Of a stretch of DNA of 64,000 nucleotides, positions 1 through 54,556 are shown one piece after another. The notes under the pieces are model-generated. The model was not told the DNA's origin, did no database searches, and saw only the letters and a list, made by a program, of their open reading frames with translations. Both the position numbers and the translations under genes were made by a program. Origin of the DNA: Giardia intestinalis (Eukaryota); NCBI GenBank assembly GCA_000002435.2, contig CM018789.1; one strand, written 5' to 3'. The first letter of the stretch is position 1. Every line of letters starts with the position of its first letter.

Positions 1-592
1 AGTGCCTAACTGTCCTTGCCGGTGGCATTGCACAGCGAGTGCCCTGGAGGCGCCATCATGACTACGCTTTTCTGCTCTTTTGCTTACAGAGGCCATTACT
101 GTCTGTCCGCTCATGACACCATAAACACACAAGGTCAATCCCCCTGGCACTTTACTCAGAGGTGCGCCGGCTCTTTCGGAGAAGCGCTTCTCTGTGTAGC
201 TGTCTAGTGAACAGACCAGACACGGTGGTGCTATCAGCCAAGCCACTGCTGGGCAGAGCACACGGCCTGTATCTGCTCGTCTCGTGCTCTAGCCAGCCAC
301 CCCGCGTGAGCATCTGGAGGCGTGCCTGGACATATGCGTGGTATTCTGCGGTGTGCACGGTCTCGTGTCCGCACAGTAGGCCAGCCAGGGAGCGTGTGCA
401 GGCACGTCATGTGGCACCACGTCCTTTGTGGAATGCTGGAGGACCACACAGGCGAGGGTCTACCATCAAGATACGGACACGTTGCTTCCTGACATGGAAG
501 GTCAATGAGGCTATCCAGATGGCCCAGCCACGGTAGAAGGCTAGCAGATGTGATCGTATTGGCCACCAGCACTGTCACTAATACCAACATGC

Positions 593-3400
593 ATGATTAA
601 TAGATCTAGCAGGGCCGCAATGTTGCTACTAGTTCTTTGCTTTTTGATGAGCGCTCTCGCTGCACAATGCAAGGGGCACCAGCACTCCAACTGCGCAACC
701 GGCTGGTGCAGGGCGGTCCGTGGCGTCGAGGTCTGTATGAGGTGCAAAGCGGGCCACGTGCTGATCGACGGAGTGTGCGCTGATAACTCTGTTGTCTACG
801 GCGCGGGGTCCGCCTGCCAGATTCTAAACTGCAAGCAGTGTAACGCGGACAACACGCAGTGCGAGCAGTGCGAGGACGGATACACGCCGAGCGCCGGGAA
901 TACCCAGTGCAACGAGGACGCCGCGTCCGCCTGCCAGATTCTAAACTGCAAGCAGTGTAACGCGGACAACACGCAGTGCGAGCAGTGCGAGGACGGATAC
1001 ACGCCGAGCGCCGGGAATACCCAGTGCAACGAGGACGCCGCGTCCGCCTGCCAGATTCTAAACTGCAAGCAGTGTAACGCGGACAACACGCAGTGCGAGC
1101 AGTGCGAGGACGGATACACGCCGAGCGCCGGGAATACCCAGTGCAACGAGGACGCCGCGTCCGCCTGCCAGATTCTAAACTGCAAGCAGTGTAACGCGGA
1201 CAACACGCAGTGCGAGCAGTGCGAGGACGGATACACGCCGAGCGCCGGGAATACCCAGTGCAACGAGGACGCCGCGTCCGCCTGCCAGATTCTAAACTGC
1301 AAGCAGTGTAACGCGGACAACACGCAGTGCGAGCAGTGCGAGGACGGATACACGCCGAGCGCCGGGAATACCCAGTGCAACGAGGACGCCGCGTCCGCCT
1401 GCCAGATTCTAAACTGCAAGCAGTGTAACGCGGACAACACGCAGTGCGAGCAGTGCGAGGACGGATACACGCCGAGCGCCGGGAATACCCAGTGCAACGA
1501 GGACGCCGCGTCCGCCTGCCAGATTCTAAACTGCAAGCAGTGTAACGCGGACAACACGCAGTGCGAGCAGTGCGAGGACGGATACACGCCGAGCGCCGGG
1601 AATACCCAGTGCAACGAGGACGCCGCGTCCGCCTGCCAGATTCTAAACTGCAAGCAGTGTAACGCGGACAACACGCAGTGCGAGCAGTGCGAGGACGGAT
1701 ACACGCCGAGCGCCGGGAATACCCAGTGCAACGAGGACGCCGCGTCCGCCTGCCAGATTCTAAACTGCAAGCAGTGTAACGCGGACAACACGCAGTGCGA
1801 GCAGTGCGAGGACGGATACACGCCGAGCGCCGGGAATACCCAGTGCAACGAGGACGCCGCGTCCGCCTGCCAGATTCTAAACTGCAAGCAGTGTAACGCG
1901 GACAACACGCAGTGCGAGCAGTGCGAGGACGGATACACGCCGAGCGCCGGGAATACCCAGTGCAACGAGGACGCCGCGTCCGCCTGCCAGATTCTAAACT
2001 GCAAGCAGTGTAACGCGGACAACACGCAGTGCGAGCAGTGCGAGGACGGATACACGCCGAGCGCCGGGAATACCCAGTGCAACGAGGACGCCGCGTCCGC
2101 CTGCCAGATTCTAAACTGCAAGCAGTGTAACGCGGACAACACGCAGTGCGAGCAGTGCGAGGACGGATACACGCCGAGCGCCGGGAATACCCAGTGCAAC
2201 GAGGACGCCGCGTCCGCCTGCCAGATTCTAAACTGCAAGCAGTGTAACGCGGACAACACGCAGTGCGAGCAGTGCGAGGACGGATACACGCCGAGCGCCG
2301 GGAATACCCAGTGCAACGAGGACGCCGCGTCCGCCTGCCAGATTCTAAACTGCAAGCAGTGTAACGCGGACAACACGCAGTGCGAGCAGTGCGAGGACGG
2401 ATACACGCCGAGCGCCGGGAATACCCAGTGCAACGAGAACCCAGAAGCGCGGTGCAATACTCCCAACTGTAAGACCTGTGACAACCCCAAAACAGGCAAT
2501 GAAATCTGCACTAAATGTAATGATGGCGACTACCTCACCCCTACAAACCAGTGCGCACATGACTGCACAGCCATCAGCGGATACTACGGAGATACTGACA
2601 AGAAGTGTAAGCCATGCAGCCCTGAGTGCGCTGAGTGCGTTGGGCCAGCCAACAATCAGTGTAGTGCTTGTCCTGCAGGCAAGGCATTAACATATGGAGG
2701 TGGTGATCCTGCCCAAGGGGGCACCTGCGGGGATGCGTGTACGGCGGACAAGAACGGATGTAAGGTCTGTGGGGCAAGGATCGGCGGGACAGACTACTGC
2801 TCCCAGTGCTCAGTGGGTACTCAGGCTCCTCTGAACGGGGTCTGTACGGCCAACGCGCGTGCTCAGTTCTGCACACAAGTTACCAGTGGATCCTGCACGT
2901 CTTGTAGTGGGGGCTACTTCCTCAAGAATGGTGGCTGTTACCAGGCAGATAGACAGCCAGGCAAACAGATATGTACACTAGCTGATAGCAATGGTGGATG
3001 TCAGGCGTGTGCCAATGGTCTTCCTCCTAGTTCTTCTGACGTATGCCCCTCGTGTCATTTCACCTGCAAGACATGCTCGACCGCAGACATTGCAAATACT
3101 TGTACAACGTGTGCAACTGGGTACTACATGGTCGGATCAGGGCCAAACACATGTATTTCGTGTGAAAGTGACAGTGGAAGTGTCAAGGGAGTTGCTGGCT
3201 GCATGAGCTGCGCTCCTCCATCTAGCAATACTGGCTCCGTTCTCTGCTACCTCATGAACGGTGACAGTGCCGGCGGGAGCACGAATAAGAGCGGCCTTAG
3301 CACAGGTGCCATCGCTGGCATCTCTGTGGCTGTCATCGTCGTCGTCGGGGGACTCGTCGGCTTCCTCTGCTGGTGGTTCATCTGCAGGGGCAAAGCGTAG
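593..3400 (+). CDS. vsp: Variant-specific surface protein (VSP), long form with 14 x 39-aa tandem repeats
   Basis: 935-aa ORF. It has a hydrophobic signal-like N-terminus; MLLLVLCFLMSALAAQC from the second in-frame ATG at 620 may be the real start. It is Cys-rich with many CXXC motifs and a GGCY motif (FLKNGGCYQ). A C-terminal TM helix (GAIAGISVAVIVVVGGLVGFLCWWFI) is followed by CRGKA-stop. An AGTAAAC poly(A) signal lies just downstream. Confidence 0.95.
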   Translation: MINRSSRAAMLLLVLCFLMSALAAQCKGHQHSNCATGWCRAVRGVEVCMRCKAGHVLIDGVCADNSVVYGAGSACQILNCKQCNADNTQCEQCEDGYTPSAGNTQCNEDAASACQILNCKQCNADNTQCEQCEDGYTPSAGNTQCNEDAASACQILNCKQCNADNTQCEQCEDGYTPSAGNTQCNEDAASACQILNCKQCNADNTQCEQCEDGYTPSAGNTQCNEDAASACQILNCKQCNADNTQCEQCEDGYTPSAGNTQCNEDAASACQILNCKQCNADNTQCEQCEDGYTPSAGNTQCNEDAASACQILNCKQCNADNTQCEQCEDGYTPSAGNTQCNEDAASACQILNCKQCNADNTQCEQCEDGYTPSAGNTQCNEDAASACQILNCKQCNADNTQCEQCEDGYTPSAGNTQCNEDAASACQILNCKQCNADNTQCEQCEDGYTPSAGNTQCNEDAASACQILNCKQCNADNTQCEQCEDGYTPSAGNTQCNEDAASACQILNCKQCNADNTQCEQCEDGYTPSAGNTQCNEDAASACQILNCKQCNADNTQCEQCEDGYTPSAGNTQCNEDAASACQILNCKQCNADNTQCEQCEDGYTPSAGNTQCNENPEARCNTPNCKTCDNPKTGNEICTKCNDGDYLTPTNQCAHDCTAISGYYGDTDKKCKPCSPECAECVGPANNQCSACPAGKALTYGGGDPAQGGTCGDACTADKNGCKVCGARIGGTDYCSQCSVGTQAPLNGVCTANARAQFCTQVTSGSCTSCSGGYFLKNGGCYQADRQPGKQICTLADSNGGCQACANGLPPSSSDVCPSCHFTCKTCSTADIANTCTTCATGYYMVGSGPNTCISCESDSGSVKGVAGCMSCAPPSSNTGSVLCYLMNGDSAGGSTNKSGLSTGAIAGISVAVIVVVGGLVGFLCWWFICRGKA
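808..2437 (+). repeat. Perfect 117-bp tandem array, about 13.9 units, in frame within the VSP CDS
   Basis: The period was measured directly: cgcctgccag at 811 recurs at 928. The unit encodes SACQILNCKQCNADNTQCEQCEDGYTPSAGNTQCNEDAA (6 Cys, two CXXC). Units look nucleotide-identical by eye across lines 781-2460. 1630 bp / 117 = 13.9. Confidence 0.95.
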
Positions 3401-3412
3401 ATGTACTTAGAT

Positions 3413-3419
3413 AGTAAAC
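3413..3419 (+). promoter_or_regulatory. Giardia-type polyadenylation signal AGTAAAC for the left VSP
   Basis: AGTAAAC matches the AGTRAAY consensus and starts 13 nt after the TAG stop codon at 3398-3400. Confidence 0.7.
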
Positions 3420-3912
3420 GCGTCACTGTATAAAGCATATTATACTGTGATGGGGCCCTGCCTGTGGGAGCGTCCAGAAATCCCACGAGTAAGTCTCGCC
3501 CACGTCTTGGCCAATCTGAGAGCGAGAACTGGTTGTAGACAGCAAGCAGGGACTCCTCTTTATTAGTGTATCTAAAACTTGGCACCTTCTCCGGTCGCTC
3601 TGTGGGTGTGTGCTCAGTCTGGGTGTGCACGTCGGCCGTTTCGGGGTTCAGGCCTTCTCGCAGACTCTCTGGTCCACCAGTGGCGCCTCTCCTTGGTCTT
3701 CCTTCACGGTGAGTGAAGCCCGGGCCGCTGTCTTTTTTAGATGCCCCCGTCTGTCAGGGGCTGCCATCGGGCTCTCCGCTGGCTGGGCCCCTCGGTGTCC
3801 GTCCGGCTGTGGTTCTGGGTCAGCGCTTCCACAGTCGCGGTCACTTGGGTCTCAGTGGGCCGGCTGGTGGGTGGGGCGGGGGTATGGGCGGTGAGGACTG
3901 GTGGGACCGGGT

Positions 3913-5580
3913 GGGGGCTGAGATTGGTGTCCGTATGTGCTCCTGGGTTCGGTGGGCCATTGCGGCGGTGGGTGATCCCCTCTCTGTTTGCCAAGGTGGT
4001 TGTGTCTGATCCCCAGCCTTCGTTGCACTCCCGAGACACAGGCACCGACGATCGTGTCGTGTCCCCTGACTGAGCGCCTCCCTTGGCCCCTGCATGCCTC
4101 GGGCAGTACTGCTGCTCTGGTTGACTGGTACATGAGGGATGAGGCAGGCCATCGCAGCCTCTCCTGCTACTCGCTGATGCTCTGTGCGGGTCTGCTGGGC
4201 CCCTGGCATGCCCTGTCCAGTGCCTCGACGTAGTTCACCTCGGCCAGCAGGGGTGTGGATGAGCCGGTGGATGGGATGGGTTCTCTCAGGCCTCTAGTGT
4301 GATGGCCCAGAAGACTGGCACGGTGGGGCACTGGTGGCTGCACTGTCCCCGTGGTCAGCTGTGCTGCTCCTGGTGGGTCCTTGTCATGGAGCGCTGTGTG
4401 TTGTTCATAGGCAGAGGTGAGCCTCCTTGGTTTCAAGATGCTCTACCATGCAGAGAGGAGCACGCTGAGGGTCACCCATACCTCACATCTGCTGTGCCCG
4501 TTCGGGAGTTCCCGGTGTGGTCCACCAGGACCTTGACACCTCTCGTGGCTCTGATGACCCCTCGAGGAGAGCCGGGGTGTCCTATGCCAGGGGAGGCGTG
4601 CACCCTCCTGCATGAGCTGGGACCCACTGCACTGCCCTCAAGGAGGTCTGCTATGAGAGGCAGTGGGATGATTGACGGCCCCAGAGTGCGGTGGAGGGTG
4701 CTCGTGGTCATCTCTTGTGATCGGGCATCACTCTGATGGCCAGCTCTGTGCCTGTGTGGTGCTCAGAGGCCACCTGTCTGCCTCATCGCCTGCTGGACAG
4801 CCGGGTCTCTTGTGGTGTCCGAAGGCCTCCTCACTCCTCTGGCTGCTGCCCCCTCGGGTCATCAATGAAGACAGTCGAGGCCAGCGGAGTCTTCGGTGAG
4901 TCTGGTGCCTGCCTGGGTGTCATGGGGGCTGGCAGCTGTCAGGGCTCTGCCACTGCTCACCTGCCTGGAGTGTGCCTCCCTTGGACCTACTGTGCTGCGT
5001 GAGTCCTCTGGCTTCCTATCAGGCCCTGACTGTGAGGGTGACCCCACCTGGTCCTCTGATGCCCCTGTGGATGAGCATAGCAATGTGTCTGATTGAGGAT
5101 CTCTGGTGCCCGTGTCTGTTGCTGCCTCTCGGGTGCTCGGGTAGTTGCCTGGCACTCTCGTATGGGGGCACAGTCAGCGTGTCCCGAGCAGACTCCAGTC
5201 CTCTCTGGGTCCACACAGTCTGTTCGTGTGTGGATGATCCTCCTGCACTCAGGTCCATCTGTGCACACTATCACTCAGCCTCGAGAGCAGGCCAGTGCAG
5301 TCGCCAGGGTTGCTGTCAGAGGGAGTCGTCTGCCACTACATCGCTCGAGCAGACTCTACAGATCAGGCTGGCTGCTGTGCACCCTCATGGCAGGGCTGCC
5401 TGACTCCCCTTGGTCATCCTCTCTGTCCCGGTGTGCACGGCTCCTGAGGGTTGTCTGGGTGGAGGCACTCACAGACCACGAGCACACAGAGGGGTGAGTC
5501 ATAGATGGACAGCCATCAGTCACCACAGCTGCGATCACCCCAGTCTATCGAGGGACCAGGGGCACATACAGACACCCACC
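3913..5580. other. Unique GC-rich core of the inter-VSP spacer; no credible CDS
   Basis: This is the only part of 1-7971 without a mirror copy. Many overlapping 60-145 aa ORFs occur on both strands in several frames, as expected from stop-poor GC-rich DNA. I recognise no motif in any of them. Confidence 0.6.
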
Positions 5581-6073
5581 ACCCGGTCCCACCAGTCCTC
5601 ACCGCCCATACCCCCGCCCCACCCACCAGCCGGCCCACTGAGACCCAAGTGACCGCGACTGTGGAAGCGCTGACCCAGAACCACAGCCGGACGGACACCG
5701 AGGGGCCCAGCCAGCGGAGAGCCCGATGGCAGCCCCTGACAGACGGGGGCATCTAAAAAAGACAGCGGCCCGGGCTTCACTCACCGTGAAGGAAGACCAA
5801 GGAGAGGCGCCACTGGTGGACCAGAGAGTCTGCGAGAAGGCCTGAACCCCGAAACGGCCGACGTGCACACCCAGACTGAGCACACACCCACAGAGCGACC
5901 GGAGAAGGTGCCAAGTTTTAGATACACTAATAAAGAGGAGTCCCTGCTTGCTGTCTACAACCAGTTCTCGCTCTCAGATTGGCCAAGACGTGGGCGAGAC
6001 TTACTCGTGGGATTTCTGGACGCTCCCACAGGCAGGGCCCCATCACAGTATAATATGCTTTATACAGTGACGC

Positions 6074-6080
6074 GTTTACT
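6074..6080 (-). promoter_or_regulatory. Polyadenylation signal AGTAAAC for the right VSP (mirror of 3413-3419)
   Basis: The plus strand reads gtttact, whose reverse complement is AGTAAAC. Spacing from the stop codon is the same as on the left. Confidence 0.7.
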
Positions 6081-6092
6081 ATCTAAGTACAT

Positions 6093-7379
6093 CTACGCTT
6101 TGCCCCTGCAGATGAACCACCAGCAGAGGAAGCCGACGAGTCCCCCGACGACGACGATGACAGCCACAGAGATGCCAGCGATGGCACCTGTGCTAAGGCC
6201 GCTCTTATTCGTGCTCCCGCCGGCACTGTCACCGTTCATGAGGTAGCAGAGAACGGAGCCAGTATTGCTAGATGGAGGAGCGCAGCTCATGCAGCCAGCA
6301 ACTCCCTTGACACTTCCACTGTCACTTTCACACGAAATACATGTGTTTGGCCCTGATCCGACCATGTAGTACCCAGTTGCACACGTTGTACAAGTATTTG
6401 CAATGTCTGCGGTCGAGCATGTCTTGCAGGTGAAATGACACGAGGGGCATACGTCAGAAGAACTAGGAGGAAGACCATTGGCACACGCCTGACATCCACC
6501 ATTGCTATCAGCTAGTGTACATATCTGTTTGCCTGGCTGTCTATCTGCCTGGTAACAGCCACCATTCTTGAGGAAGTAGCCCCCACTACAAGACGTGCAG
6601 GATCCACTGGTAACTTGTGTGCAGAACTGAGCACGCGCGTTGGCCGTACAGACCCCGTTCAGAGGAGCCTGAGTACCCACTGAGCACTGGGAGCAGTAGT
6701 CTGTCCCGCCGATCCTTGCCCCACAGACCTTACATCCGTTCTTGTCCGCCGTACACGCATCCCCGCAGGTGCCCCCTTGGGCAGGATCACCACCTCCATA
6801 TGTTAATGCCTTGCCTGCAGGACAAGCACTACACTGATTGTTGGCTGGCCCAACGCACTCAGCGCACTCAGGGCTGCATGGCTTACACTTCTTGTCAGTA
6901 TCTCCGTAGTATCCGCTGATGGCTGTGCAGTCATGTGCGCACTGGTTTGTAGGGGTGAGGTAGTCGCCATCATTACATTTAGTGCAGATTTCATTGCCTG
7001 TTTTGGGGTTGTCACAGGTCTTACAGTTGGGAGTATTGCACCGCGCTTCTGGGTTCTCGTTGCACTGGGTATTCCCGGCGCTCGGCGTGTATCCGTCCTC
7101 GCACTGCTCGCACTGCGTGTTGTCCGCGTTACACTGCTTGCAGTTTAGAATCTGGCAGGCGGACCCCGCGCCGTAGACAACAGAGTTATCAGCGCACACT
7201 CCGTCGATCAGCACGTGGCCCGCTTTGCACCTCATACAGACCTCGACGCCACGGACCGCCCTGCACCAGCCGGTTGCGCAGTTGGAGTGCTGGTGCCCCT
7301 TGCATTGTGCAGCGAGAGCGCTCATCAAAAAGCAAAGAACTAGTAGCAACATTGCGGCCCTGCTAGATCTATTAATCAT
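6093..7379 (-). CDS. vsp: Variant-specific surface protein (VSP), short form with a single repeat unit
   Basis: 428-aa ORF. It is amino-acid-identical to the left VSP at the N-terminus (first ~110 aa) and C-terminus (last ~318 aa, including GGCY, the TM helix and CRGKA). It lacks 507 aa, which equals 13 repeat units. An alternative start at 7352 mirrors 620. Confidence 0.95.
   Translation of the reverse strand: MINRSSRAAMLLLVLCFLMSALAAQCKGHQHSNCATGWCRAVRGVEVCMRCKAGHVLIDGVCADNSVVYGAGSACQILNCKQCNADNTQCEQCEDGYTPSAGNTQCNENPEARCNTPNCKTCDNPKTGNEICTKCNDGDYLTPTNQCAHDCTAISGYYGDTDKKCKPCSPECAECVGPANNQCSACPAGKALTYGGGDPAQGGTCGDACTADKNGCKVCGARIGGTDYCSQCSVGTQAPLNGVCTANARAQFCTQVTSGSCTSCSGGYFLKNGGCYQADRQPGKQICTLADSNGGCQACANGLPPSSSDVCPSCHFTCKTCSTADIANTCTTCATGYYMVGSGPNTCISCESDSGSVKGVAGCMSCAPPSSNTGSVLCYLMNGDSAGGSTNKSGLSTGAIAGISVAVIVVVGGLVGFLCWWFICRGKA
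7056..7164 (-). repeat. Single copy of the 117-bp repeat unit in the short VSP
   Basis: The mirror coordinates of 808-2437 collapse to 109 bp (1630-1521). The protein reads ...GSACQILNCKQCNADNTQCEQCEDGYTPSAGNTQCNENPEA... only once. Confidence 0.9.
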
Positions 7380-8049
7380 GCATGTTGGTATTAGTGACAG
7401 TGCTGGTGGCCAATACGATCACATCTGCTAGCCTTCTACCGTGGCTGGGCCATCTGGATAGCCTCATTGACCTTCCATGTCAGGAAGCAACGTGTCCGTA
7501 TCTTGATGGTAGACCCTCGCCTGTGTGGTCCTCCAGCATTCCACAAAGGACGTGGTGCCACATGACGTGCCTGCACACGCTCCCTGGCTGGCCTACTGTG
7601 CGGACACGAGACCGTGCACACCGCAGAATACCACGCATATGTCCAGGCACGCCTCCAGATGCTCACGCGGGGTGGCTGGCTAGAGCACGAGACGAGCAGA
7701 TACAGGCCGTGTGCTCTGCCCAGCAGTGGCTTGGCTGATAGCACCACCGTGTCTGGTCTGTTCACTAGACAGCTACACAGAGAAGCGCTTCTCCGAAAGA
7801 GCCGGCGCACCTCTGAGTAAAGTGCCAGGGGGATTGACCTTGTGTGTTTATGGTGTCATGAGCGGACAGACAGTAATGGCCTCTGTAAGCAAAAGAGCAG
7901 AAAAGCGTAGTCATGATGGCGCCTCCAGGGCACTCGCTGTGCAATGCCACCGGCAAGGACAGTTAGGCACTGCCAATAGGCCAGTCTGCGTCAGTAAACA
8001 CGCAGTGTTCGCAGGCCGAACCATGTACCTTTGCAAGCGGGCAGTGTAA

Positions 8050-13865: not shown

Positions 13866-14399
13866 CTATATCTGCCTGACCATTATCTTATCATCCAAGG
13901 AGTACAGAAGGTGGTCGCTATACAGCTGTACAATGGGAGGCGGCTCTGTTTCAGAGATGGGCATTGTGCTTCTACAATACTGGTCTACAATCTCTAACTG
14001 ATCAGATACCTTCATGATCGTGTAGTGGTTTGCAAGAAAGAGGGCAGAACGGGCGTTGAGTAATCGTGTAAACGGGGGTTGGTGACACAGCTGGCTGTTC
14101 AACTGTTCAACCCTCTGCACCCTCAGCGGCTGCAGGCTGCCTCTCATGGCCAAGAGGTTGAGCCCGTCGGTTCCGACGGTGTAGAGCACTTGCTTGCAGG
14201 TGAGCGCGGAGTCGAAAATGGGATACGAGGGGGCCAGCTGGGCGTGTGTGTGAAGAAGGGCGTTCCTTATCAGATCCCAGACCTTCACAGACCCGTCGAT
14301 GCTGGTGGAAACCAGCGCGCTGTCGGCGACGTGCAGCGACGTCACCGCGTGGCTGTGAGAAAGGGTCGTGGCGGGGTGGGGCGGAAAAGCGTGCACCAT
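13866..14399 (-). CDS. Hypothetical protein with WD40-like repeats (short)
   Basis: 177-aa ATG-initiated ORF with a WD-type blade HSHAVTSLHVADSALVSTSIDGSVKVWDL. It is too short for a full propeller, and the ATG context is GC-rich (GACTCCCGCATGG), which is atypical for this locus. Confidence 0.55.
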   Translation of the reverse strand: MVHAFPPHPATTLSHSHAVTSLHVADSALVSTSIDGSVKVWDLIRNALLHTHAQLAPSYPIFDSALTCKQVLYTVGTDGLNLLAMRGSLQPLRVQRVEQLNSQLCHQPPFTRLLNARSALFLANHYTIMKVSDQLEIVDQYCRSTMPISETEPPPIVQLYSDHLLYSLDDKIMVRQI

Positions 14400-14523
14400 G
14401 CGGGAGTCGGACCCGCCCCAACAGCTTGGAAGGCTGTCATGCTAGCCGATACACCAATGGTGCCCGGCGCGCCGCATAAACAGCGGATAAATTAGTATGT
14501 GCTTTGAATGGTCTGGTTCAGAT

Positions 14524-21650: not shown

Positions 21651-24263
21651 ATGCCCGGTGATCCATCAAAAACGTATGTCCAGAGGTGGATTCAGGATGC
21701 ACTACCGCCTCTGCAGACTGAGAAGATAGCTATAGAAGTAGATAACCTGGGGTATATGGTGGGGACTAAGGGATCACGGATAGGACTAATTAGGCAGAAT
21801 ACTGGGGCGGCTATTCACTATATGGAAGATCCGCCTGGCTCTAAGCGCTTTTATGCAGTTATTAAGGGAACGACAAAGCAACTGGCCGACGCAAAGGCTG
21901 CGATTTACGCAGACGTCTTAGATTACCATCGGTGGGTTAAAAGGGGAAAGGGCAGTCTCTCCGATGCCCTGGGGAACCGCATGTACCCGTATTCTTTAGT
22001 TCTTCGCCTTCCCCCTGGAGGATCTCGATTCTACTCCGGTCCTGGATATCAGTCGTTCTTAGAGCTTTCGATCCGAAAGGACATATTTATCAATGTCAGC
22101 CAGCAAGACGAGTTGACTGTCCGAGCTGCAAGTACTGAAGCACTGATGGAAGCCGTACAAAAGGTCACAGATATTTTGAACACATTTGTTAGTCTTGCTG
22201 CTCCAATCCCCAATTGGACTGTAGGCCGAGTGATCGGACGCAACGGAGAGGCACTGGCCAAGGTATCAGATATTATTCAAATAAGGACAAATTCCCGGTT
22301 GATTTGCTTCATATCCAACACGCATAAGGCTGAAGGACTGGTATCTTATTTTGTGGTGTTGGCAGATAAGAGGGATGCTGTTACCCTAGCCATGCAGATG
22401 GTCTTTTCCAGGATCTCTTCGATTACTATAGAGGCAGGCCTGTTTGTTCCTGTTATGGAGACCGAGAACGTCATCATGCTCCCGATTGACTCCACATCTT
22501 TGTGTAGCTATGGCCTAAAGGCGCCTCTTGCGAAACTTCAAAGCTCTTCAGGCTCTCATAGCAGGAAATATTCATCTATATCGATGGATGGGTCCTTCTC
22601 GCTACCCCCGGAGATGCTGTCGTTACTACCCACAAGCAGCCCTCCTACCCATGCACGGCACTTTTCTACCGTAGAAGGAGATGTAGTGCCTTGCCACGCC
22701 GTGCAAACCACTACTGCCCACCGGCGTCTTAATAGCTCTATCCCATATAGTGTTAGCAATAGCACACAGTCTGATGGCCAACAGTCATTCCTATTCCAGC
22801 TTTCTTTCCCCAACTCCTCAGTAAGTAACACCACAGATCAGGCGCTCAAGTGCAATTTTTGCTGTGCAAAGAGAAGGTCCCTCTTGCCGTGTTCTGATTT
22901 TCTACGCACACCTTACACAGTTGAGAGCCTCCGCGAATCAACAGTGGCCGTTGATAGGAGGTATCTTGTCATGCATGTTCCAGAGCACTGTGACAATATG
23001 CAGGAGTTTTGGCAATCGTCTCTTCTTGCAGCCCTGGCAACGGTTGGGCGCGAATTTTTCTTTATCGAGGACCCTACCACTGCAGTAGACTTTGTCAAGT
23101 CGGCATTTGACTTCACAGTATCCTGTTCTCCAGGACGATGCTACTACGCTTCTCGAACGGACGAGTTATTCGATACTATATATGATATCTCCGAGGGGCT
23201 CTCCTCACGCAGAGTGCGGCTCTGCTTCGACAGTGGCATGGATGACTGTGACTACACCAAGTTGTTTGCATCTTCAAAAACCCACTATGCGTGGTATACA
23301 AAGCAGCTTATGGATGTAAGTATCTCTGACGCATTGCCCAATGGCCTTGCGCAGCACCTATCAGCCATTAGCGGCGTTGGTGGAATGGACAAACACTATA
23401 GCATGTGGCACTCTTTGAACTTTGACTGCTACGTGCAGCCTCCCGGCCGAAAGTCTGCTTTAGAGCATGACTTCTCCATGTCCCTTAGTGACGAAGACAT
23501 ACCGCAATTACAAGATGCTGCTGACGAGCCTGCGGTTAGCGTATCTGGCTTGGGGATATCATATATTTTGCAGTCTAAAACGGGTTATGATATCTTGGTG
23601 AAGATAACCCTTGTTCCTAAGAGCCTTACTCCCTTGGTATCTGCAACCGATGAGACAGATGTGGATGCACTGTGTAGAGGGGACGCACGCTTGATACTCC
23701 TTAGAAAGTATATCAAGAATCTAAAGACTATATCCAGTAATACTGCGTACACAAGTCCTATTACGACCACCAAATGTTACGAAGTGCAATCCGAACCATC
23801 CCAATTCGGAGAGGCTCTTCCCGTCAAAACACATGTCATAACACTCAACTTACCAGACGTCCCACTTGACGTGGCGACACACATAGATCCCACGCCTCTG
23901 TCACTTGAGGATCTGGCCACGGGGGTGGGGTACTCTACAGCGAAGGGCCTCCTCCCACCCAGCCAAGATTCCAAGTTTCCTATGCCGTCCACCGTTCTTA
24001 TCCAGGACCATCCCAATGCTACCCTGAACCGGGTGGTCTTCGCTGGGCTTGGTGACATAGTTGCAACTTCTTCCTACCTCCAAGAGTTACCCCATGTGGC
24101 CAAGCCTAAATTAGTCGTCGACTTCCGACCCTTTGCTGGGTATCGGTGGAGGAGGAAGGGCCTTATTAACAAGGTGGTTAGCTTCACTGGACTGGTATCT
24201 ATTCTTCCGAGCATTGTAAGCAGAGTCAAGGAGGTCTTAAAGACGTTACCAGATCAGGAGTAA
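21651..24263 (+). CDS. KH-domain RNA-binding protein (large)
   Basis: 870 aa. KH GXXG loops occur in GYMVGTKGSRIGLIRQNTGAAI and VGRVIGRNGEALAKVSDI. The remainder has no motif I recognise. Confidence 0.85.
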   Translation: MPGDPSKTYVQRWIQDALPPLQTEKIAIEVDNLGYMVGTKGSRIGLIRQNTGAAIHYMEDPPGSKRFYAVIKGTTKQLADAKAAIYADVLDYHRWVKRGKGSLSDALGNRMYPYSLVLRLPPGGSRFYSGPGYQSFLELSIRKDIFINVSQQDELTVRAASTEALMEAVQKVTDILNTFVSLAAPIPNWTVGRVIGRNGEALAKVSDIIQIRTNSRLICFISNTHKAEGLVSYFVVLADKRDAVTLAMQMVFSRISSITIEAGLFVPVMETENVIMLPIDSTSLCSYGLKAPLAKLQSSSGSHSRKYSSISMDGSFSLPPEMLSLLPTSSPPTHARHFSTVEGDVVPCHAVQTTTAHRRLNSSIPYSVSNSTQSDGQQSFLFQLSFPNSSVSNTTDQALKCNFCCAKRRSLLPCSDFLRTPYTVESLRESTVAVDRRYLVMHVPEHCDNMQEFWQSSLLAALATVGREFFFIEDPTTAVDFVKSAFDFTVSCSPGRCYYASRTDELFDTIYDISEGLSSRRVRLCFDSGMDDCDYTKLFASSKTHYAWYTKQLMDVSISDALPNGLAQHLSAISGVGGMDKHYSMWHSLNFDCYVQPPGRKSALEHDFSMSLSDEDIPQLQDAADEPAVSVSGLGISYILQSKTGYDILVKITLVPKSLTPLVSATDETDVDALCRGDARLILLRKYIKNLKTISSNTAYTSPITTTKCYEVQSEPSQFGEALPVKTHVITLNLPDVPLDVATHIDPTPLSLEDLATGVGYSTAKGLLPPSQDSKFPMPSTVLIQDHPNATLNRVVFAGLGDIVATSSYLQELPHVAKPKLVVDFRPFAGYRWRRKGLINKVVSFTGLVSILPSIVSRVKEVLKTLPDQE

Positions 24264-24306: not shown

Positions 24307-27300
24307 ATGACCACGTTTGTGAGTACCTTTCTTCCGGTGGGGGATCGTTTGAGCGACCCGGATTACGCTGATAACGCAGTCCAGACAGTACTGTATTTCC
24401 CCAAGCTGGCAATTTTTGCTGAGACAACAACGATCTATTCTACCTCATACAAGCCCAACGATTCCCATGGGCCCATTGGACTTACGTACCTGAATGAAAG
24501 TGTTAATAACGGCATCATCTTATCCGTTTCAAAGCGGAGCGCGTCCTCATTTCTCTGCCTATCTGCTATTGTAAAGGATAGTGACCCTGACAGTCTCTCT
24601 GCTCTCAAATTCCTCCAGCATAGGATCAGTGTGAGGCGTGATGTTGGTAATCCAGACGTCTCAGCAGATTTACACACTCTGGAATATCTTCTAATCCATA
24701 ACAAGATGTACACCACCTACACGGTGTACAGTGTGACTGATGCTCAGTGCGAATTAAAGTACGTTGCCCCCACGTCAGTACCCTTGATTGGAGCCATCGC
24801 TGTGGAGGGGACGCCATTTATTGCTGCCACTGGTGTTTCAAAAGACGGCTATAACTTTACATTTGATTGTCTTCTTGATGAGGATAATGGGGGGAAGCTT
24901 ATCCCTGTGCGCACCGTTAAACAGAAAACAGGAGACGTCACATCCTTCGTTGACACAGCCCTTTACCCCGCCATCAATATGATATCTGACCGCCCCTCTA
25001 CCGCATGTACTACTCCTGCAACGACAGTCAAAGACTTTGTCCATCAGGTTAGCTCTCGTAACACGCGCGCTGCATCTGATGTTCTGTATAAATTTTCTGC
25101 TGTCCACCTAGATTCTAGTACAAAAACTGTGTACTACAGAGAGTACGATTTGAAATCGACTAACTTACGAGTCATACATGCCCCAGGTACAAAGAAGTCG
25201 GATAAGCACAAGGCAGCAGACTCAGTTGATTATAGTGCGACCATAGAAAGCTTCAAGCCAACTGTCCATTATACCAGGACGCTCATTGTTAACTCTGCGG
25301 TGCCCATTGTTCGTATTGCAGCGCTAGTTATGCCGTATACGCAGAACTCGCTTCTCAATGACAAGTACGCCGTTATCACAGACTGCGGTGACCTTCAACT
25401 TTATTCCAGGAGAGAGCAGGCAGACGGTCCTTCTGCTAGCATCAAAGTGTTTTCTAAAAAGCTAAGACGAGCGTTCCTTGTGCCTCTCAGAGATGGAGTT
25501 ATCATGCTCACCTCTTCTACCGGGGAGTCTGCTTTAGTTGGCATAGATGGCAAGTGGAACTCCGACAAAAATATTGAAGAAATGCGGGGCCATCTCTGCA
25601 AAATCTTTATTGATGAGTTCTTAGCAACTAATCCTAATTACGACCAACAGAATTTGAGACACGAGCTGTCGAAGGACCTTCTCCCGCCTATTGACTCCTT
25701 TTCCAAGTCAGTTCAGGTGAAGAAGCACATAGATAAGCTAGCAATAATAACCACCTTCTCGTACAATTCGACTGTCACCTGTGCCTCCACGGCTCCTGAT
25801 CATAAGCTTGTTTGTTTGGGCTTGACATCCCGAAAGTTCATCTTTGTGCCCACAGAGCCGATCAAGAACAGGGCTCTTTTGTCAAGCTATAGAGGTAAGC
25901 TGAGCCGCGAAACTGCTAATAATCTGCAGGGACAGTACACAAAGTATGATGTAGAGGCTGCAGTGAAGGATACTGTCGCGTACTTGGCCAACCGGGGCCT
26001 TAATGGTCAGCAGCTCATGGAGCGTGTTAGCTTTTTCTTCGCATTTTCAAAGGACGTGGGGCACTCAGACTTTTTGCCTGTGCAAGAAAGTGTTCTAGAT
26101 GTTGCAAATCATAACCACGATGCTCCATCAGATACGATTGAAATGCTCTCCATTCTGGCATCTGTCACTAAGGACGAGGTTCTGGGGAAGTCTAGCTTGG
26201 CGGCCTATGACCCTGATCTCGGGAAATCCATGATAAACGACCTCAGGGAGGTGATGCGCAGTACGTTAAGGACGGTCGCCGTCCCCGGTGTCGGATCCAC
26301 GGCGATCCCAGGAGAAGGAGCCCTTCAGGCTTCCGATCATCATCTTCTTGCAGATCAGCTTTCGGACCATACTGGAACACGCTCTAAACGAGTTGAGTTC
26401 CTGGAGCCAACGCTGCGTGGAGCAAAGCTGTCGACTGCAATTAATTTCACTCTTGCGGATCTGAGTGCCATAGAGACAAGAGGATTAACTGAAGCTAACG
26501 GCTCCCACGTTGCTGCACCGATACACTCTGCCAGCGGACTTTATCAGACAGATCGAAATGTGGTGCAAGAACCCCCAGATCACGCTCATCTAGACTCATT
26601 AATAGAGGAGAATTTTAAGAATCATCTTGTTGATGCAACTCGTAACCTTTTAGAGTCGGGCTTCGACTGTCAGAGACTTTTTAACGCCGTCGAGGAAGAC
26701 GTGAAAACTGCCATACTTAGTATGATGAATGTTTCTGACCTGAATGAGGACTCCAGAACTGCGCGACTGGCAGATCTTCCATTGGTGCCTCATCACGCTG
26801 ATGAGCGTGTCACGTCAGGCAGAGACGCAATGTTAGATGAATATCCGGCTGAGCCAGGGGTTAACGTTCCCGTGTCTCTCTTGTCTGCGGCTTGGCTTGG
26901 AGCAATTAGTAATAGTCTAGCTGTTAGGGATACTACGAGACATCCTGTACAGCTTCCTGTGCTTAGCAACCTAGGCGGCGCCAAGTTGTTGCTAACTCAT
27001 TACAAGGAGATCCAGGAAAAGAAATATACTTTAGTACGGAATAAGTTTACTTTGGCGCTAGAGCTACTATTAGCTGATGATCCTCTTTTTTTGGCAGCCT
27101 CCTGCTCCGCCAGGGGGTTGTCTAGCATGAAGAATTCATATTATTTGACAGACTATATTCGCCGGGAGCATGAAGAGATCTCACAGTGCCCATACTGCTC
27201 CGTTTTTTCCATTCGATGCAATCTTTTCCAGCTCTCTTCGCGTGGAGAGACTGTGTGCAGCACAACTGAGCGCTTGCTGTGCGAGATCTTAGATAGCTCA

Positions 27301-28593
27301 CACGAGATAAGGCAGGACTATGCTGTCCGTATTATTGCAGGAATGGAGGCCTTCTTGACAAGAGTATATCAAGAAGATCTTAATACGGCAATGACTGCCC
27401 CCGGGGAGGAACCGCTGGCATCCTTGCAGTATACACAGTTTCCTCAGCGTCTCATTACATTTGTCCCCGATGGAGGGCTGGTGAATAATTTGACTTTCAT
27501 GCAAGACATTGCAGGACCCAGTGGAGCTCCTCAAAAGGTCAGATATGAGCTTATTGGAACCATATCACAGGACTGCTTGGCTGTTTACAAGCTAGATACT
27601 GTCGGTAGATGGTGTATGCTCGAAGGCAGTGATTCTACCGGGCTCACCATCAGTATCAGGCCCAATGACGTAGCAGATAATAGTTTTTATGCCGTATACA
27701 AGCAAGTCAGTGGCTCAGAAGGTGCAGTAGGAGTGCCCCTGGATTCGTTGCACAACATCATGACACTGGCATACGGTACCGACGATACTCTGCGGCCGTC
27801 TGCAGAGATACCGGATTCTGATCTCAATCCGCTCAGCGATTCGTCCTTGAAGAAAGAAATATCTCTTTTAAAATCTCAGTTGGAGTACCGAACAAGGCGT
27901 GAAGAGAGAGCGACAGAAAAGGCACAAGCATTAAGCGCAGAGAACCATGAACTGAAGAAGAAGATTGAGTCACTGAAAGTTGATTTGAAATTCGAAGAAA
28001 TGCTTACAAAAAGCGAACTTCTTCGTCAGCAGAGTGCAGCGGAAAATGCAGAGCAGGACCGCAGGCTAGATGAGCTCTTGCGTCTTCAAACAGAATTGCG
28101 GCAACGTGAAAGCGAGGAGAAGATCTTGATATTAGAGCTCGAGGAGGCTCGCAGGAGAATCGCAGACTTGGTGCATACCCGCGAGACAGCCGACATAGAT
28201 GAATACGATGTAATACTGAAGCATTGCTACACTACCTTGGGTGGAGATGAGGCAGACGTACCTGAAAAGCGCAAGGAGCTCCTGCTGATGTTACAGAAGC
28301 AGTGCATTGCAGTGTCGACAGAGTATGACTTGAATAACCCCTATCGCAAAGGAAGCATGCGGCTATCATATGGTCCAGCAAGGGCCTCACAAATGCGCAT
28401 GTCAAGAAGCAGGGCCGATGCCCGATCCATAGCTCAGAGCTTGGAAGCGTTCCATGTTTCAGACCTTCAAGACAATGAGTTGGGGAACAGAAAGGTAATA
28501 GCGACTACGCTTCTTCCTGTCATTTGTTTCTTTATTGGAATAGCGATCATTGTTATTTTTGCGATGGCATTCAACAGGAACGACGTCGTATGA
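24307..28593 (+). CDS. Large tail-anchored coiled-coil protein with a degenerate USP-like (pseudo-deubiquitinase) region
   Basis: 1428-aa uninterrupted ORF. A C-terminal coiled coil (LKSQLEYRTRREERATEKAQALSAENHELKKKIESLK...) is followed by a terminal TM helix (VIATTLLPVICFFIGIAIIVIFAMAF). The USP-like blocks are described in the findings. Confidence 0.9.
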   Translation: MTTFVSTFLPVGDRLSDPDYADNAVQTVLYFPKLAIFAETTTIYSTSYKPNDSHGPIGLTYLNESVNNGIILSVSKRSASSFLCLSAIVKDSDPDSLSALKFLQHRISVRRDVGNPDVSADLHTLEYLLIHNKMYTTYTVYSVTDAQCELKYVAPTSVPLIGAIAVEGTPFIAATGVSKDGYNFTFDCLLDEDNGGKLIPVRTVKQKTGDVTSFVDTALYPAINMISDRPSTACTTPATTVKDFVHQVSSRNTRAASDVLYKFSAVHLDSSTKTVYYREYDLKSTNLRVIHAPGTKKSDKHKAADSVDYSATIESFKPTVHYTRTLIVNSAVPIVRIAALVMPYTQNSLLNDKYAVITDCGDLQLYSRREQADGPSASIKVFSKKLRRAFLVPLRDGVIMLTSSTGESALVGIDGKWNSDKNIEEMRGHLCKIFIDEFLATNPNYDQQNLRHELSKDLLPPIDSFSKSVQVKKHIDKLAIITTFSYNSTVTCASTAPDHKLVCLGLTSRKFIFVPTEPIKNRALLSSYRGKLSRETANNLQGQYTKYDVEAAVKDTVAYLANRGLNGQQLMERVSFFFAFSKDVGHSDFLPVQESVLDVANHNHDAPSDTIEMLSILASVTKDEVLGKSSLAAYDPDLGKSMINDLREVMRSTLRTVAVPGVGSTAIPGEGALQASDHHLLADQLSDHTGTRSKRVEFLEPTLRGAKLSTAINFTLADLSAIETRGLTEANGSHVAAPIHSASGLYQTDRNVVQEPPDHAHLDSLIEENFKNHLVDATRNLLESGFDCQRLFNAVEEDVKTAILSMMNVSDLNEDSRTARLADLPLVPHHADERVTSGRDAMLDEYPAEPGVNVPVSLLSAAWLGAISNSLAVRDTTRHPVQLPVLSNLGGAKLLLTHYKEIQEKKYTLVRNKFTLALELLLADDPLFLAASCSARGLSSMKNSYYLTDYIRREHEEISQCPYCSVFSIRCNLFQLSSRGETVCSTTERLLCEILDSSHEIRQDYAVRIIAGMEAFLTRVYQEDLNTAMTAPGEEPLASLQYTQFPQRLITFVPDGGLVNNLTFMQDIAGPSGAPQKVRYELIGTISQDCLAVYKLDTVGRWCMLEGSDSTGLTISIRPNDVADNSFYAVYKQVSGSEGAVGVPLDSLHNIMTLAYGTDDTLRPSAEIPDSDLNPLSDSSLKKEISLLKSQLEYRTRREERATEKAQALSAENHELKKKIESLKVDLKFEEMLTKSELLRQQSAAENAEQDRRLDELLRLQTELRQRESEEKILILELEEARRRIADLVHTRETADIDEYDVILKHCYTTLGGDEADVPEKRKELLLMLQKQCIAVSTEYDLNNPYRKGSMRLSYGPARASQMRMSRSRADARSIAQSLEAFHVSDLQDNELGNRKVIATTLLPVICFFIGIAIIVIFAMAFNRNDVV

Positions 28594-54100: not shown

Positions 54101-54556
54101 ATCAAAGCAGGATCCATTCTGAGAAAGAAGCTCGTACCGCTCGAGTAGAAGGCGCAGCAGATCATTTCGACGGCTCAGAGAGAAGTTATCGCTCACTAGA
54201 AACCTGGGCACATGCAATTCTATATCTGTAGGAAGTAACGTACGATTGTTCATGAGTGCAAAGATATCGGGGCTCCACGTCCCAGTTAAGCAGCAAATAT
54301 TGCGTCTGGACTCAAGCATTCGTCCTATGGTTGCGTCCAGAGACTTCTTGATCACTCTCCGCTTTTGTGGATGGTGCATCTGATCATAACACTCCTCTAA
54401 AAGTACGTAAACATGACGGTATGTGTTATACCAGTTGAGCTGTTGTTGCAAAAGCTGTGAATTTTGTAGCCGTATGACTCTAGGATCTGAAGTGGACTCC
54501 TTATTTATTTGCTCCATGAGAAGCGTCATGGCTTCCCGCCACTGACGATCGCTCAT
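51200..54556 (-). CDS. IQ-motif and AAA-ATPase protein, IQCA1 / DRC11-like (nexin-dynein regulatory complex)
   Basis: 1118 aa. IQ motifs: LLIQRAERGRAARLRAK and VIIQKYWRRALAKSK. The Walker A motif is in LLIYGAPGVGKTLLSRIIA. Three Lys/Gly/Ser-rich inserts are present. Confidence 0.9.
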   Translation of the reverse strand: MSDRQWREAMTLLMEQINKESTSDPRVIRLQNSQLLQQQLNWYNTYRHVYVLLEECYDQMHHPQKRRVIKKSLDATIGRMLESRRNICCLTGTWSPDIFALMNNRTLLPTDIELHVPRFLVSDNFSLSRRNDLLRLLLERYELLSQNGSCFDLTHSLRGYVPGKGILEEKTEAQVQRAMSLEEAILLIQRAERGRAARLRAKLVQDIMKVKPAGRQIQGGRIHSREQASVIIQKYWRRALAKSKVNAMKQADLVFLGLASSSAAQGTGSSILPIVQDMVSSECIKREKLYEADYLARLNARKDVLDKSILSVGKPGIPDSGIAASSNLHTTLTPLTSVIIATTCDGMESTYALSRYIDKSNILSNQPYMTHVTNAYNSGLPLMHDLVRNRILLADAKKLGQAAYQAELITKRNVALRIQAELVMQSAEDVILQELKEKEGTELEKLLYSRHKKAIAQFRDLNDGAIPTSALDIASPDEKLVMEKVAAEREAELLRRGLKGKKKKGKKGSKGSKGKTAAPSKGAAEEAVEDPDKAKVSFLSAYLHDIVDTTVEYFNRWQRHDPANLAEQPYDVEYLKETLRPQILKDVYDSVAETVTAELDNMRTIADATKQLVEAKKGGKGKKGKKGSKGKKGKKGSRGSKSLPALEPPPPVGPVGDASVEAAYAELVSEGLVKAIKPARIRDFIGCDTYIAPSSQETEFMQRIAVKALQKFTQQGTIAIDKKAAGIVDPVEQEKLAAAKASIPAYALLPDLPSYNQIKQDIIANVIIPLGCPMARAVPHSNTLLIYGAPGVGKTLLSRIIATETGALVIDVSPANIVNKFPGQEIGVIFKLIKVVIASNQPAIIYFDEAELVLADTKEKKGKKGSKGNKGSKGKGKLKLPGDDVETPGYSMCCEGYPKLSDPDYNPYRLRKELLSLLKSINEYDGVLVLGCATRTMTREKALADFFQRHIYVPLPDYNTRLRLISHFFEKMGLEQFALTGVAKDVPVGQYTSSKLSTGAFDSRRFTALGLMNLTSGIAITNNETEKIPFDLSSFAKVTEGFTAGQIQQALHMVCTPGRVASLGSKPLSVVEFGQVLSHLQPQYDSQVAHVALYKLNKAPPEYQPPIPLTDPTPKKGK

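What the first reader, a model, noticed from the sequence alone, without database searches (positions are those of the whole stretch)
808..2437. 14 versus 1 copies of a perfect 117-bp coding repeat between otherwise identical VSP copies
The left VSP has about 13.9 head-to-tail copies of a 117-bp unit that appear nucleotide-identical. The right VSP (7056-7164) has one. Each unit adds 39 aa with 6 Cys and two CXXC motifs (CKQC, CEQC). The long form therefore gains 507 aa and 78 Cys of extracellular stalk, while the N-terminus, membrane-proximal region, TM helix and CRGKA tail are unchanged. The absence of any unit-to-unit divergence argues for very recent expansion or contraction, by replication slippage or unequal exchange. 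The two arms may represent before and after states of one expansion held in cis. Functionally, the pair would present the same epitopes at two very different lengths and valencies. Repeat-number polymorphism between alleles is known for other repeat-bearing VSPs. Here it is seen between paralogous arms of one palindrome.
Basis: seen in the sequence. Interest (0 to 1): 0.65.

Follow-up and report, generated by a model that had tools for sequence, protein, structure and literature searches.

The report
Giardia VSP pair, unequal repeat arrays
Two mirror-image copies of one Giardia surface-antigen gene are identical except that one carries 14 perfect copies and the other one copy of a 117-bp coding repeat; this is real, but both genes and the repeat are already catalogued and this kind of variation is well known in this gene family.

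Summary
Window 808-2437 is a 117-bp array of 13.9 copies with no mismatch. The opposite arm has one partial copy (109 nt, 7056-7164). With 13 units removed, the arms (1-3914 and 5579-7971) are identical at every base.

The locus is on chromosome 1 of the Giardia intestinalis WB reference. The long gene is GL50803_0050392 (926 aa) and the short one GL50803_00112647 (419 aa). Adam et al. 2010 listed this pair as vsp87.1/87.2 with "TR117". Their 623 aa, 83 Cys and 27 CXXC match a 6-copy version exactly. A 2022 preprint tabulates this same 117-nt unit.

The expansion reading is only partly right. The short arm lacks the last 8 nt of the unit (GACGCCGC). A simple tandem duplication of it therefore cannot give the array. 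One in-register deletion of 13 units from the long arm gives the short arm exactly, so contraction is the more parsimonious direction. Relatives in assemblages A and E carry 1, 2.9 or 4.9 copies of the homologous module.

The precedent is vspA6 (~23 copies) versus vspA6-S1 (~1 copy). What I did not find stated in print is that this "non-duplicated" pair is a perfect palindrome differing only in array length. Interest is low to moderate.

The parts
1..3914 (+). Left arm of the palindrome (cut by the window start). It holds the 5' flank, the long VSP gene and 514 nt of 3' flank.
   Evidence: Inverted repeats found. After removal of 13 units it is identical to the reverse complement of 5579-7971 over 2393 nt.
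620..3400 (+). Long VSP gene, 926 aa (GL50803_0050392 / XP_037901619.1). An upstream in-frame ATG at 593 gives the 935-aa mechanical ORF.
   Evidence: ORF. CAATGTT initiator at the second ATG. Pfam PF03302 E 9.4e-101. Identity to the annotated gene (926 aa, 131 Cys).
808..2437 (+). Array of the 117-bp (39-aa) coding repeat: 13 full units plus a 109-nt partial unit, all identical.
   Evidence: The consensus is identical to TR unit no. 21 (GL50803_50392) in a supplementary table of the 2022 preprint.
3404..3423 (+). Extended VSP polyadenylation motif TACTTAGATAGTAAACGCGT, starting 4 nt after the stop codon.
   Evidence: Exact match. The same motif is listed for both genes in a supplement of the preprint.
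3915..5578 (.). Unique spacer between the arms: 1664 nt, GC 61.5%.
   Evidence: Arm boundaries. No other copy in the window, no VSP-like coding remnant, and GC value, all. No internal repeats.
5579..7971 (-). Right arm of the palindrome. It is seen only as far as the mirror of window position 1.
6093..7352 (-). Short VSP gene, 419 aa (GL50803_00112647 / XP_001707111.2 / KAE8301640.1). An upstream in-frame ATG at 7379 gives the 428-aa ORF, which equals the old XP_001707111.1.
   Evidence: Pfam PF03302 E 7.8e-92.
7056..7164 (-). Single partial unit: the first 109 of 117 nt. The 8-nt inter-unit junction is absent.
6070..6089 (-). Extended polyadenylation motif of the short gene.

Best explanation
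This is the tail-to-tail VSP palindrome vsp87.1/87.2 (GL50803_00112647 and GL50803_0050392) on chromosome 1 of Giardia intestinalis WB. Both arms encode the same variant-specific surface protein. It has a signal peptide, a 49-residue N-terminal cap, one or more copies of a 39-residue six-cysteine module, a ~320-residue CXXC-rich body, a TM helix and a CRGKA tail.

The module is predicted to fold as two small beta-hairpins of the furin-like cysteine-rich repeat type. The long arm therefore makes a protein whose membrane-distal part is extended by 13 extra modules.

Copy number changes by in-register recombination or slippage between perfect 117-nt units. The length is a multiple of 3, so the frame is always kept.

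The array state is the older one in this VSP subfamily. The short arm is most simply a one-step contraction, by deletion of 13 units between the first and the last (partial) unit. The contraction happened in one arm of a palindrome whose arms are otherwise kept identical, either by arm-to-arm gene conversion or by recent origin.

Shown: the sequence anatomy, the identities, family membership, and the identity of the locus with catalogued genes. Inferred: the direction of change, the recombination mechanism, gene conversion between the arms, and any functional consequence of the length difference.
For: Array and single copy, all units identical.

Arms identical apart from a 1521-nt indel.

Short arm lacks the 8-nt junction. 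The best possible duplication junction differs at 3 or more of 8 nt, while 14 x 109 nt of unit and 2393 nt of arm show no substitution at all.

Locus identity:
- The short protein equals KAE8301640.1 / XP_001707111.2 on a 1,485,438-bp WB contig.
- The long gene is GL50803_0050392, 926 aa, 131 Cys, on NC_051856.1, with the same 117-nt unit.
- A 6-copy version gives 623 aa, 83 Cys and 27 CXXC, exactly the vsp87 row of Adam 2010. The 3' divergence of 514 nt also matches.

Family context: the homologous module is present as 4.9 x 35 aa in WB vsp108, 2.9 x 40 aa and 2.9 x 35 aa in two P15 VSPs, and once in P15 P0007 and WB P0021. All arrays end at the same point, just before ...PE(A/Q)(R/Q)CNTPNC.

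VSP membership.

Fold: AlphaFold2 model with pLDDT 83; the unit region scores 87-89 over residues 71-100 (65 over 61-70) and has hairpins E71-74/E81-84 and E88-90/E97-99. The best PDB matches are R-spondin Fu1-Fu2 furin-like repeats, probability up to 0.99.

Assembly quality: PacBio 200x, read N50 12.7 kb, so reads span the ~8-kb palindrome. The authors reported no misassemblies on read mapping.
Against: The direction of change rests on parsimony from one 8-nt junction plus family comparison. A never-expanded copy that is continuously converted by the other arm's flanks would look the same.

No reads were available, so neither copy number is verified at read level. Giardia is tetraploid, and repeat number is known to differ between alleles for vspA6 and vspC5. 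'14' may therefore be one of several alleles.

The Sanger-era sequence had only ~6 copies. That could be assembly condensation or a true difference between stocks.

Gene conversion between the arms is inferred only from their identity.

The fold matches are weak by E-value (0.03).
Confidence: 0.6

Rival explanations
1. The short arm is the unexpanded 'before' state, and the long arm arose from it by a recent tandem duplication followed by rapid expansion.
For: Perfect unit identity fits a recent burst. Single-copy relatives exist in WB and P15.
Against: The short arm holds only 109 of 117 nt of the unit. Every junction that a 117-nt tandem duplication of the short arm could produce differs from the observed GACGCCGC at 3 or more of 8 positions. 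Nothing else in the units or arms has changed. Homologous arrays with the same 3' boundary occur in paralogues and in assemblage E, which points to an old array state.
Confidence: 0.2
2. Assembly artefact. Either the right arm's array was collapsed to one copy, or the left arm's copy number is wrong, and in the cell the two arms are the same.
For: Perfect tandem repeats and identical inverted pairs are the classic trouble spots. Adam 2010 warns that repeat numbers 'may have been artificially condensed' and that inverted pairs terminated contigs. The Sanger version had ~6 copies against 14 here.
Against: The reference used PacBio reads with N50 12.7 kb at 200x, HGAP plus Quiver, optical maps and a read-mapping check. 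A 1.6-kb array and an 8-kb palindrome are both spanned by single reads. A single-copy gene model (428 aa, XP_001707111.1) already existed in the independent 2007 assembly. Adam 2010 attached 'TR117' to only one member of the pair.
Confidence: 0.1
3. Consensus of a heterogeneous population. The four chromosome copies, or different cells in the culture, carry several array lengths on either arm. The assembly shows only the most common combination.
For: Allelic differences in repeat number are documented for vspA6 and vspC5. Nanopore work predicts many intra-isolate structural variants enriched for VSPs in WB. Copy number was 6 in one data set and 14 in another.
Against: This does not remove the asymmetry. 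It only adds variation around it. Heterozygosity in WB is very low, 0.01-0.03%.
Confidence: 0.1

Closest known systems
vspA6 (CRP170) versus vspA6-S1 / vspG3M in Giardia WB
   Same: These two VSP paralogues are nearly identical outside the repeat. [quoted passage not shown] Alleles also differ in copy number (Adam 2010 background).
   Different: There the unit is 195 bp, the flanks carry scattered substitutions, and the genes are not described as the two arms of one palindrome. Here the flanks are 100% identical and the two genes are 2.7 kb apart, tail to tail.
Identical inverted VSP pairs (vsp1267 type; 14 pairs in Adam 2010, 19-20 pairs in Xu 2020 and the 2022 preprint)
   Same: Orientation is tail to tail. 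ORFs are 2692 nt apart (published range 2.2-3.8 kb). The flanks are identical up to an abrupt divergence 514 nt after the stop (published range 139-729). The spacer is reported as similar to that of the 14586/d14586 pair.
   Different: The ORFs are not identical in length, 926 vs 419 aa. For that reason the pair is missing from Xu's Table 2 and is called 'non duplicated' in the preprint, which also states 'no duplicated VSPs have repeats'.
vsp108 (GL50803_102662, TR105) and the related P15 VSPs. From my own knowledge, this is the vspC5-like group with nearly identical 5' regions.
   Same: They share the same leader (MLLLVLCFLMSALAAQ), a homologous six-Cys module, the same sequence after the array (NPEARCNTPNCKTCD), and arrays that are internally perfect.
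   Different: Unit length is 35 or 40 aa and copy number 2.9-4.9. The downstream body is 55-65% identical.
Furin-like cysteine-rich repeats (R-spondin Fu1-Fu2, ErbB / IGF-1R Cys-rich domains)
   Same: The predicted fold of the VSP ectodomain, including the unit, is a series of disulfide-rich beta-hairpin modules. The best Foldseek PDB matches have probability up to 0.99.
   Different: Sequence identity is 17-29% and E-values reach only ~0.03. This is a resemblance of fold, not evidence of shared function.

Membership tests
Giardia variant-specific surface protein (VSP) | Match to the Pfam VSP family PF03302 above the gathering score | tested here: met
   338 and 308.6 bits against a cut-off of 31.4.
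Giardia variant-specific surface protein (VSP) | N-terminal signal peptide, CXXC-rich ectodomain, C-terminal TM helix and CRGKA tail | tested here: met
   Both translations end in ...GGLVGFLCWWFICRGKA. CXXC counts are 43 and 17, and Cys makes up 12-14% of residues. The model has helices at residues 2-13 and 395-416. No dedicated signal-peptide predictor was run.
Giardia variant-specific surface protein (VSP) | Initiator element (C/T)AATGTT at the start codon and the extended poly(A) motif just after the stop | tested here: met
   CAATGTT lies at the second ATG, 620 / 7352. TACTTAGATAGTAAACGCGT starts 4 nt after each stop.
Identical inverted VSP pair (Adam 2010; Xu 2020) | [quoted passage not shown] | tested here: met
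   Tail to tail, 2692 nt between the ORFs. No VSP-like coding remnant in the spacer.
Identical inverted VSP pair (Adam 2010; Xu 2020) | Flanks identical up to an abrupt point of divergence 139-729 nt from the ORF | tested here: met
   The 3' divergence is 514 nt after the stop, the same number as in Table 5 for vsp87. The 5' divergence point is not visible because the window starts inside the arm.
Identical inverted VSP pair (Adam 2010; Xu 2020) | The two ORFs are identical | tested here: not met
   926 vs 419 aa. They are identical only after 13 units are removed.
Tandem-repeat-containing VSP (30 genes in Adam 2010, 36 in the 2022 preprint) | In-frame tandem repeat of about 105-516 bp, with 2 or more copies, in the ectodomain | tested here: met
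   The long gene has 117 bp x 13.9 copies. The short gene has 0.93 copy and does not qualify.

The most novel reading that the evidence does not exclude
The palindrome is kept base-for-base identical by arm-to-arm gene conversion, yet the array is exempt from that homogenisation. The parasite would then stably hold two length forms (1 vs 14 modules) of one antigen in cis. It could switch between them to change coat thickness or epitope valency without changing antigenic identity.
Probability: 0.1. Interest if true: 0.5.

Novelty: already known. Interest (0 to 1): 0.25.

Why it matters
The finding mainly tidies the record. It shows that one VSP pair treated as 'non-duplicated' in recent catalogues is a perfect palindrome differing only by 13 repeat units. 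That contradicts the generalisation that duplicated VSPs never carry repeats.

The locus is a convenient natural test bed. The unique spacer lets each arm be read separately in long reads. Rates of array contraction and expansion, and of arm-to-arm conversion, could then be measured in clonal lines.

It also matters for read mapping. Every k-mer of the short gene is contained in the long gene. Expression of the two forms therefore cannot be separated with short reads. In the published table, the unique-mapping TPM for 112647 is about a tenth of the multi-mapping TPM.

Tried and rejected
- Exact-protein look-ups of the 428-aa ORF and of P0001 in the contig index found nothing. No independent assembly of the locus could therefore be fetched.
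- The exact long protein is not in the protein collection.
- An exact 51-nt probe from the unit found nothing in the JGI metagenome contigs.
- tblastn of 121 VSP relatives against the intergenic region gave only two marginal 33-aa hits (E ~3e-4) inside the arms, so no pseudogene is evident in the spacer.
- No internal repeats or hairpins of note were found in the spacer.
- The Be-2 versus WB comparison paper has no statement on tandem repeats or inverted pairs.
- I considered reading the published RNA-seq values as evidence for which form is expressed. I rejected this because both clones expressed other VSPs, and the long gene's row is not in the stored part of the file.
- The 571-aa antisense ORF at 796-2511 is only the stop-free repeat read on the other strand.
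Full report
**Observation**

Tandem Repeats Finder reports a single array in the first 12 kb. It lies at 808-2437, with period 117, 13.9 copies, 100% matches and no indels. Direct comparison shows 13 full units with zero differences. The 14th unit departs only in its last 8 nt. A 109-nt probe from the unit, with up to 3 mismatches allowed, hits 14 times on the + strand and once on the - strand (7056-7164). All hits are exact, and no match occurred in 100 shuffles.

The array lies inside ORF 593-3400 (+, 935 aa). The single copy lies inside ORF 6093-7379 (-, 428 aa). The long form has 507 more residues, 78 more Cys and 26 more CXXC.

The two genes are the arms of an inverted repeat. With 13 units removed from the left arm, positions 1-3914 equal the reverse complement of 5579-7971 at every one of 2393 positions. 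The window starts inside the left arm, so the outer end of the palindrome is not visible. The arms enclose a unique spacer of 1664 nt (3915-5578).

**What it is**

Both proteins match Pfam PF03302 (Giardia variant-specific surface protein) at E 9e-101 and 8e-92. Both end in the canonical ...FLCWWFICRGKA tail. The CAATGTT initiator lies at the second in-frame ATG (620 and 7352). The extended VSP poly(A) motif TACTTAGATAGTAAACGCGT starts 4 nt after each stop.

- **Short gene.** The short protein is 100% identical to KAE8301640.1 / XP_001707111.2. This is a 419-aa VSP of G. intestinalis WB on a 1,485,438-bp contig. The 428-aa version equals the older XP_001707111.1.
- **Annotation in the WB reference.** Supplementary tables of a 2022 preprint (10.1101/2022.03.07.483299) identify the short gene as GL50803_00112647. 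Its neighbour is GL50803_0050392 (XP_037901619.1), with 926 aa and 131 Cys, on chromosome 1 (NC_051856.1). The preprint lists a tandem-repeat unit for it that is letter-for-letter the TRF consensus found here.
- **Earlier catalogue.** Adam et al. 2010 (PMC2996952) list vsp87.1 (GL50803_112647, 'TTIPa') and vsp87.2 ('TTIPb_TR117', 117 nt x 5) as a tail-to-tail inverted pair of 623 aa, 83 Cys and 27 CXXC. A version of the present ORF with six units has exactly those three numbers. Their 3' divergence point for vsp87, 514 nt after the stop, is exactly what I measure (3914 minus 3400).

The gene pair, its orientation and the 117-bp repeat are therefore already catalogued. The Sanger-era sequence simply held fewer copies. 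The authors themselves warn that such condensation can be an assembly effect.

**What is not in those papers, as far as I could read**

Xu et al. 2020 (PMC7000408) list 19 duplicated VSP pairs, and this pair is not among them. The 2022 preprint calls the two genes 'non duplicated VSP genes' and states that 'no duplicated VSPs have repeats'. The sequence shows instead a perfect duplicate pair whose only difference is 13 repeat units. That is a useful correction, but a small one.

**Direction of the change**

The long arm reads F5-(U)13-U'-F3. U' is the first 109 nt of the unit. The remaining 8 nt, J, are GACGCCGC. The short arm reads F5-U'-F3 and does not contain J.

A tandem duplication of any 117-nt segment of the short arm would create a junction built from the first nucleotides of F3 (AACCCAGA) and the last nucleotides of F5 (GGCGCGGG). 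Every such combination differs from J at 3 or more of 8 positions (my enumeration from the sequences). Yet not one substitution is seen in 14 x 109 nt of unit or in 2393 nt of arm.

By contrast, one in-register exchange or slippage between the first unit and the last partial unit removes exactly 13 units and yields the short arm to the base. Contraction is therefore the more parsimonious direction.

Family comparison agrees with this. The same leader and a homologous six-Cys module occur in several relatives:

- 4.9 x 35 aa in WB vsp108
- 2.9 x 40 aa and 2.9 x 35 aa in two VSPs of the assemblage E isolate P15
- a single copy in P15 P0007 and in WB P0021

Every array is perfect at the protein level. 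Every array ends at the same place, just before ...PE(A/Q)(R/Q)CNTPNC. An array at this position thus looks old for the subfamily. Each array seems to be homogenised internally, and copy number has moved between 1 and many repeatedly. This remains an inference. A never-expanded copy that is continually converted from the other arm cannot be excluded.

**Is it an assembly artefact?**

I could not examine reads. In favour of reality:

- The reference was built from PacBio reads with N50 12.7 kb at 200x, using HGAP and Quiver, optical maps and a read-mapping check that found no misassemblies. Single reads span both the 1.6-kb array and the ~8-kb palindrome.
- A single-copy gene model was already present in the independent 2007 assembly.
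- Adam 2010 attached the TR label to only one member of the pair.

Against certainty:

- Perfect repeats and identical inverted pairs are the known weak spots of Giardia assemblies.
- Giardia is tetraploid, with documented allelic repeat-number variation for vspA6 and vspC5.
- Nanopore data predict many intra-isolate structural variants enriched in VSPs.

I put about 0.1 on an artefact and about 0.1 on '14 and 1' being only the commonest of several states.

**How it most likely works**

An AlphaFold2 model of the short protein was built from an alignment of 59 relatives. It has mean pLDDT 83. The unit occupies residues 64-102, and blocks 71-100 have pLDDT 87-89 (block 61-70: 65). It forms two small beta-hairpins (E71-74/E81-84 and E88-90/E97-99).

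The best matches among solved structures are the furin-like cysteine-rich repeats of R-spondins, followed by ErbB receptors. Foldseek probability is up to 0.99, but E-values reach only ~0.03. Each unit is therefore most likely one disulfide-bonded module of the same kind as the rest of the ectodomain.

Thirteen extra modules lengthen the membrane-distal part of the protein, between a 49-residue cap and the ~320-residue conserved body. This is not the membrane-proximal stalk.

Repeats of another VSP (VspA6) are reported as immunodominant. A 14-fold repeated epitope is thus a plausible consequence, but nothing here tests it. Published RNA-seq from clones expressing other VSPs shows only low sense signal for 112647: about 1 TPM from unique reads and about 16 TPM when two-fold multi-mapping is allowed. 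The antisense signal is higher. This shows only that the two genes cannot be told apart with short reads.

**Comparison with what is known**

[quoted passage not shown] The genomic arrangement is that of the vsp1267-type tail-to-tail pairs. It meets their criteria of orientation, spacing (2692 nt) and abrupt flank divergence (514 nt). It fails only the criterion of ORF identity.

The feature is therefore a combination of two well-described properties of the VSP repertoire, at a locus that is itself already catalogued.

**Verdict**

I rate it 'already known'. The unremarked detail is the asymmetric palindrome, which contradicts a published generalisation. Interest is 0.25.

Noticed in passing
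window 3915-5578: The spacer between the arms has GC 61.5% against 49% for the window. It has no VSP-like coding remnant and no internal repeats. A preprint supplement says it closely resembles the spacer of another tail-to-tail pair on chromosome 5 (14586/d14586). That would mean palindrome cassettes share a spacer of unknown role.
   Followed up: partly
window 3401-6092: Adam 2010 Table 5 gives 2393 nt between the vsp87 ORFs. The window has 2692 nt, although the 3' divergence (514 nt) agrees exactly. This could be a typo, or a ~300-nt difference between the old and new assemblies within the spacer.
   Followed up: no
window 593-622 and 7350-7379: An in-frame ATG 27 nt upstream of the initiator ATG adds 9 residues (MINRSSRAA). 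It was used in the 2007 gene model (428 aa) and in the 623-aa figure of Adam 2010. The current annotation starts at the CAATGTT initiator.
   Followed up: yes
P0003, P0005, P0007 (Giardia P15), P0008 and P0021 (WB): Relatives with the same leader carry 1, 2.9 or 4.9 copies of a homologous 35-40-aa module. Each array is perfect at the protein level and ends at the same boundary. This suggests concerted evolution within arrays and repeated copy-number change across assemblages A and E.
   Followed up: partly
window 796-2511 (-): This 571-aa antisense ORF is produced only because the repeat has no stop codon in that frame. It is not evidence of a gene.
   Followed up: yes
window 14391-14463 (-); 21651-24263 (+); 48333-50978 (-); 51200-54556 (-): Ordinary neighbours lie to the right of the palindrome: tRNA-Gly(TCC), a KH-domain protein, an ERCC4-domain nuclease and an AAA ATPase. 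Two large ORFs (24307-28593 and 35826-38039) have no Pfam match.
   Followed up: no
window 52640-52711: There is a short imperfect 27-nt (and 18-nt) pyrimidine-rich tandem repeat inside the AAA ATPase ORF region.
   Followed up: no
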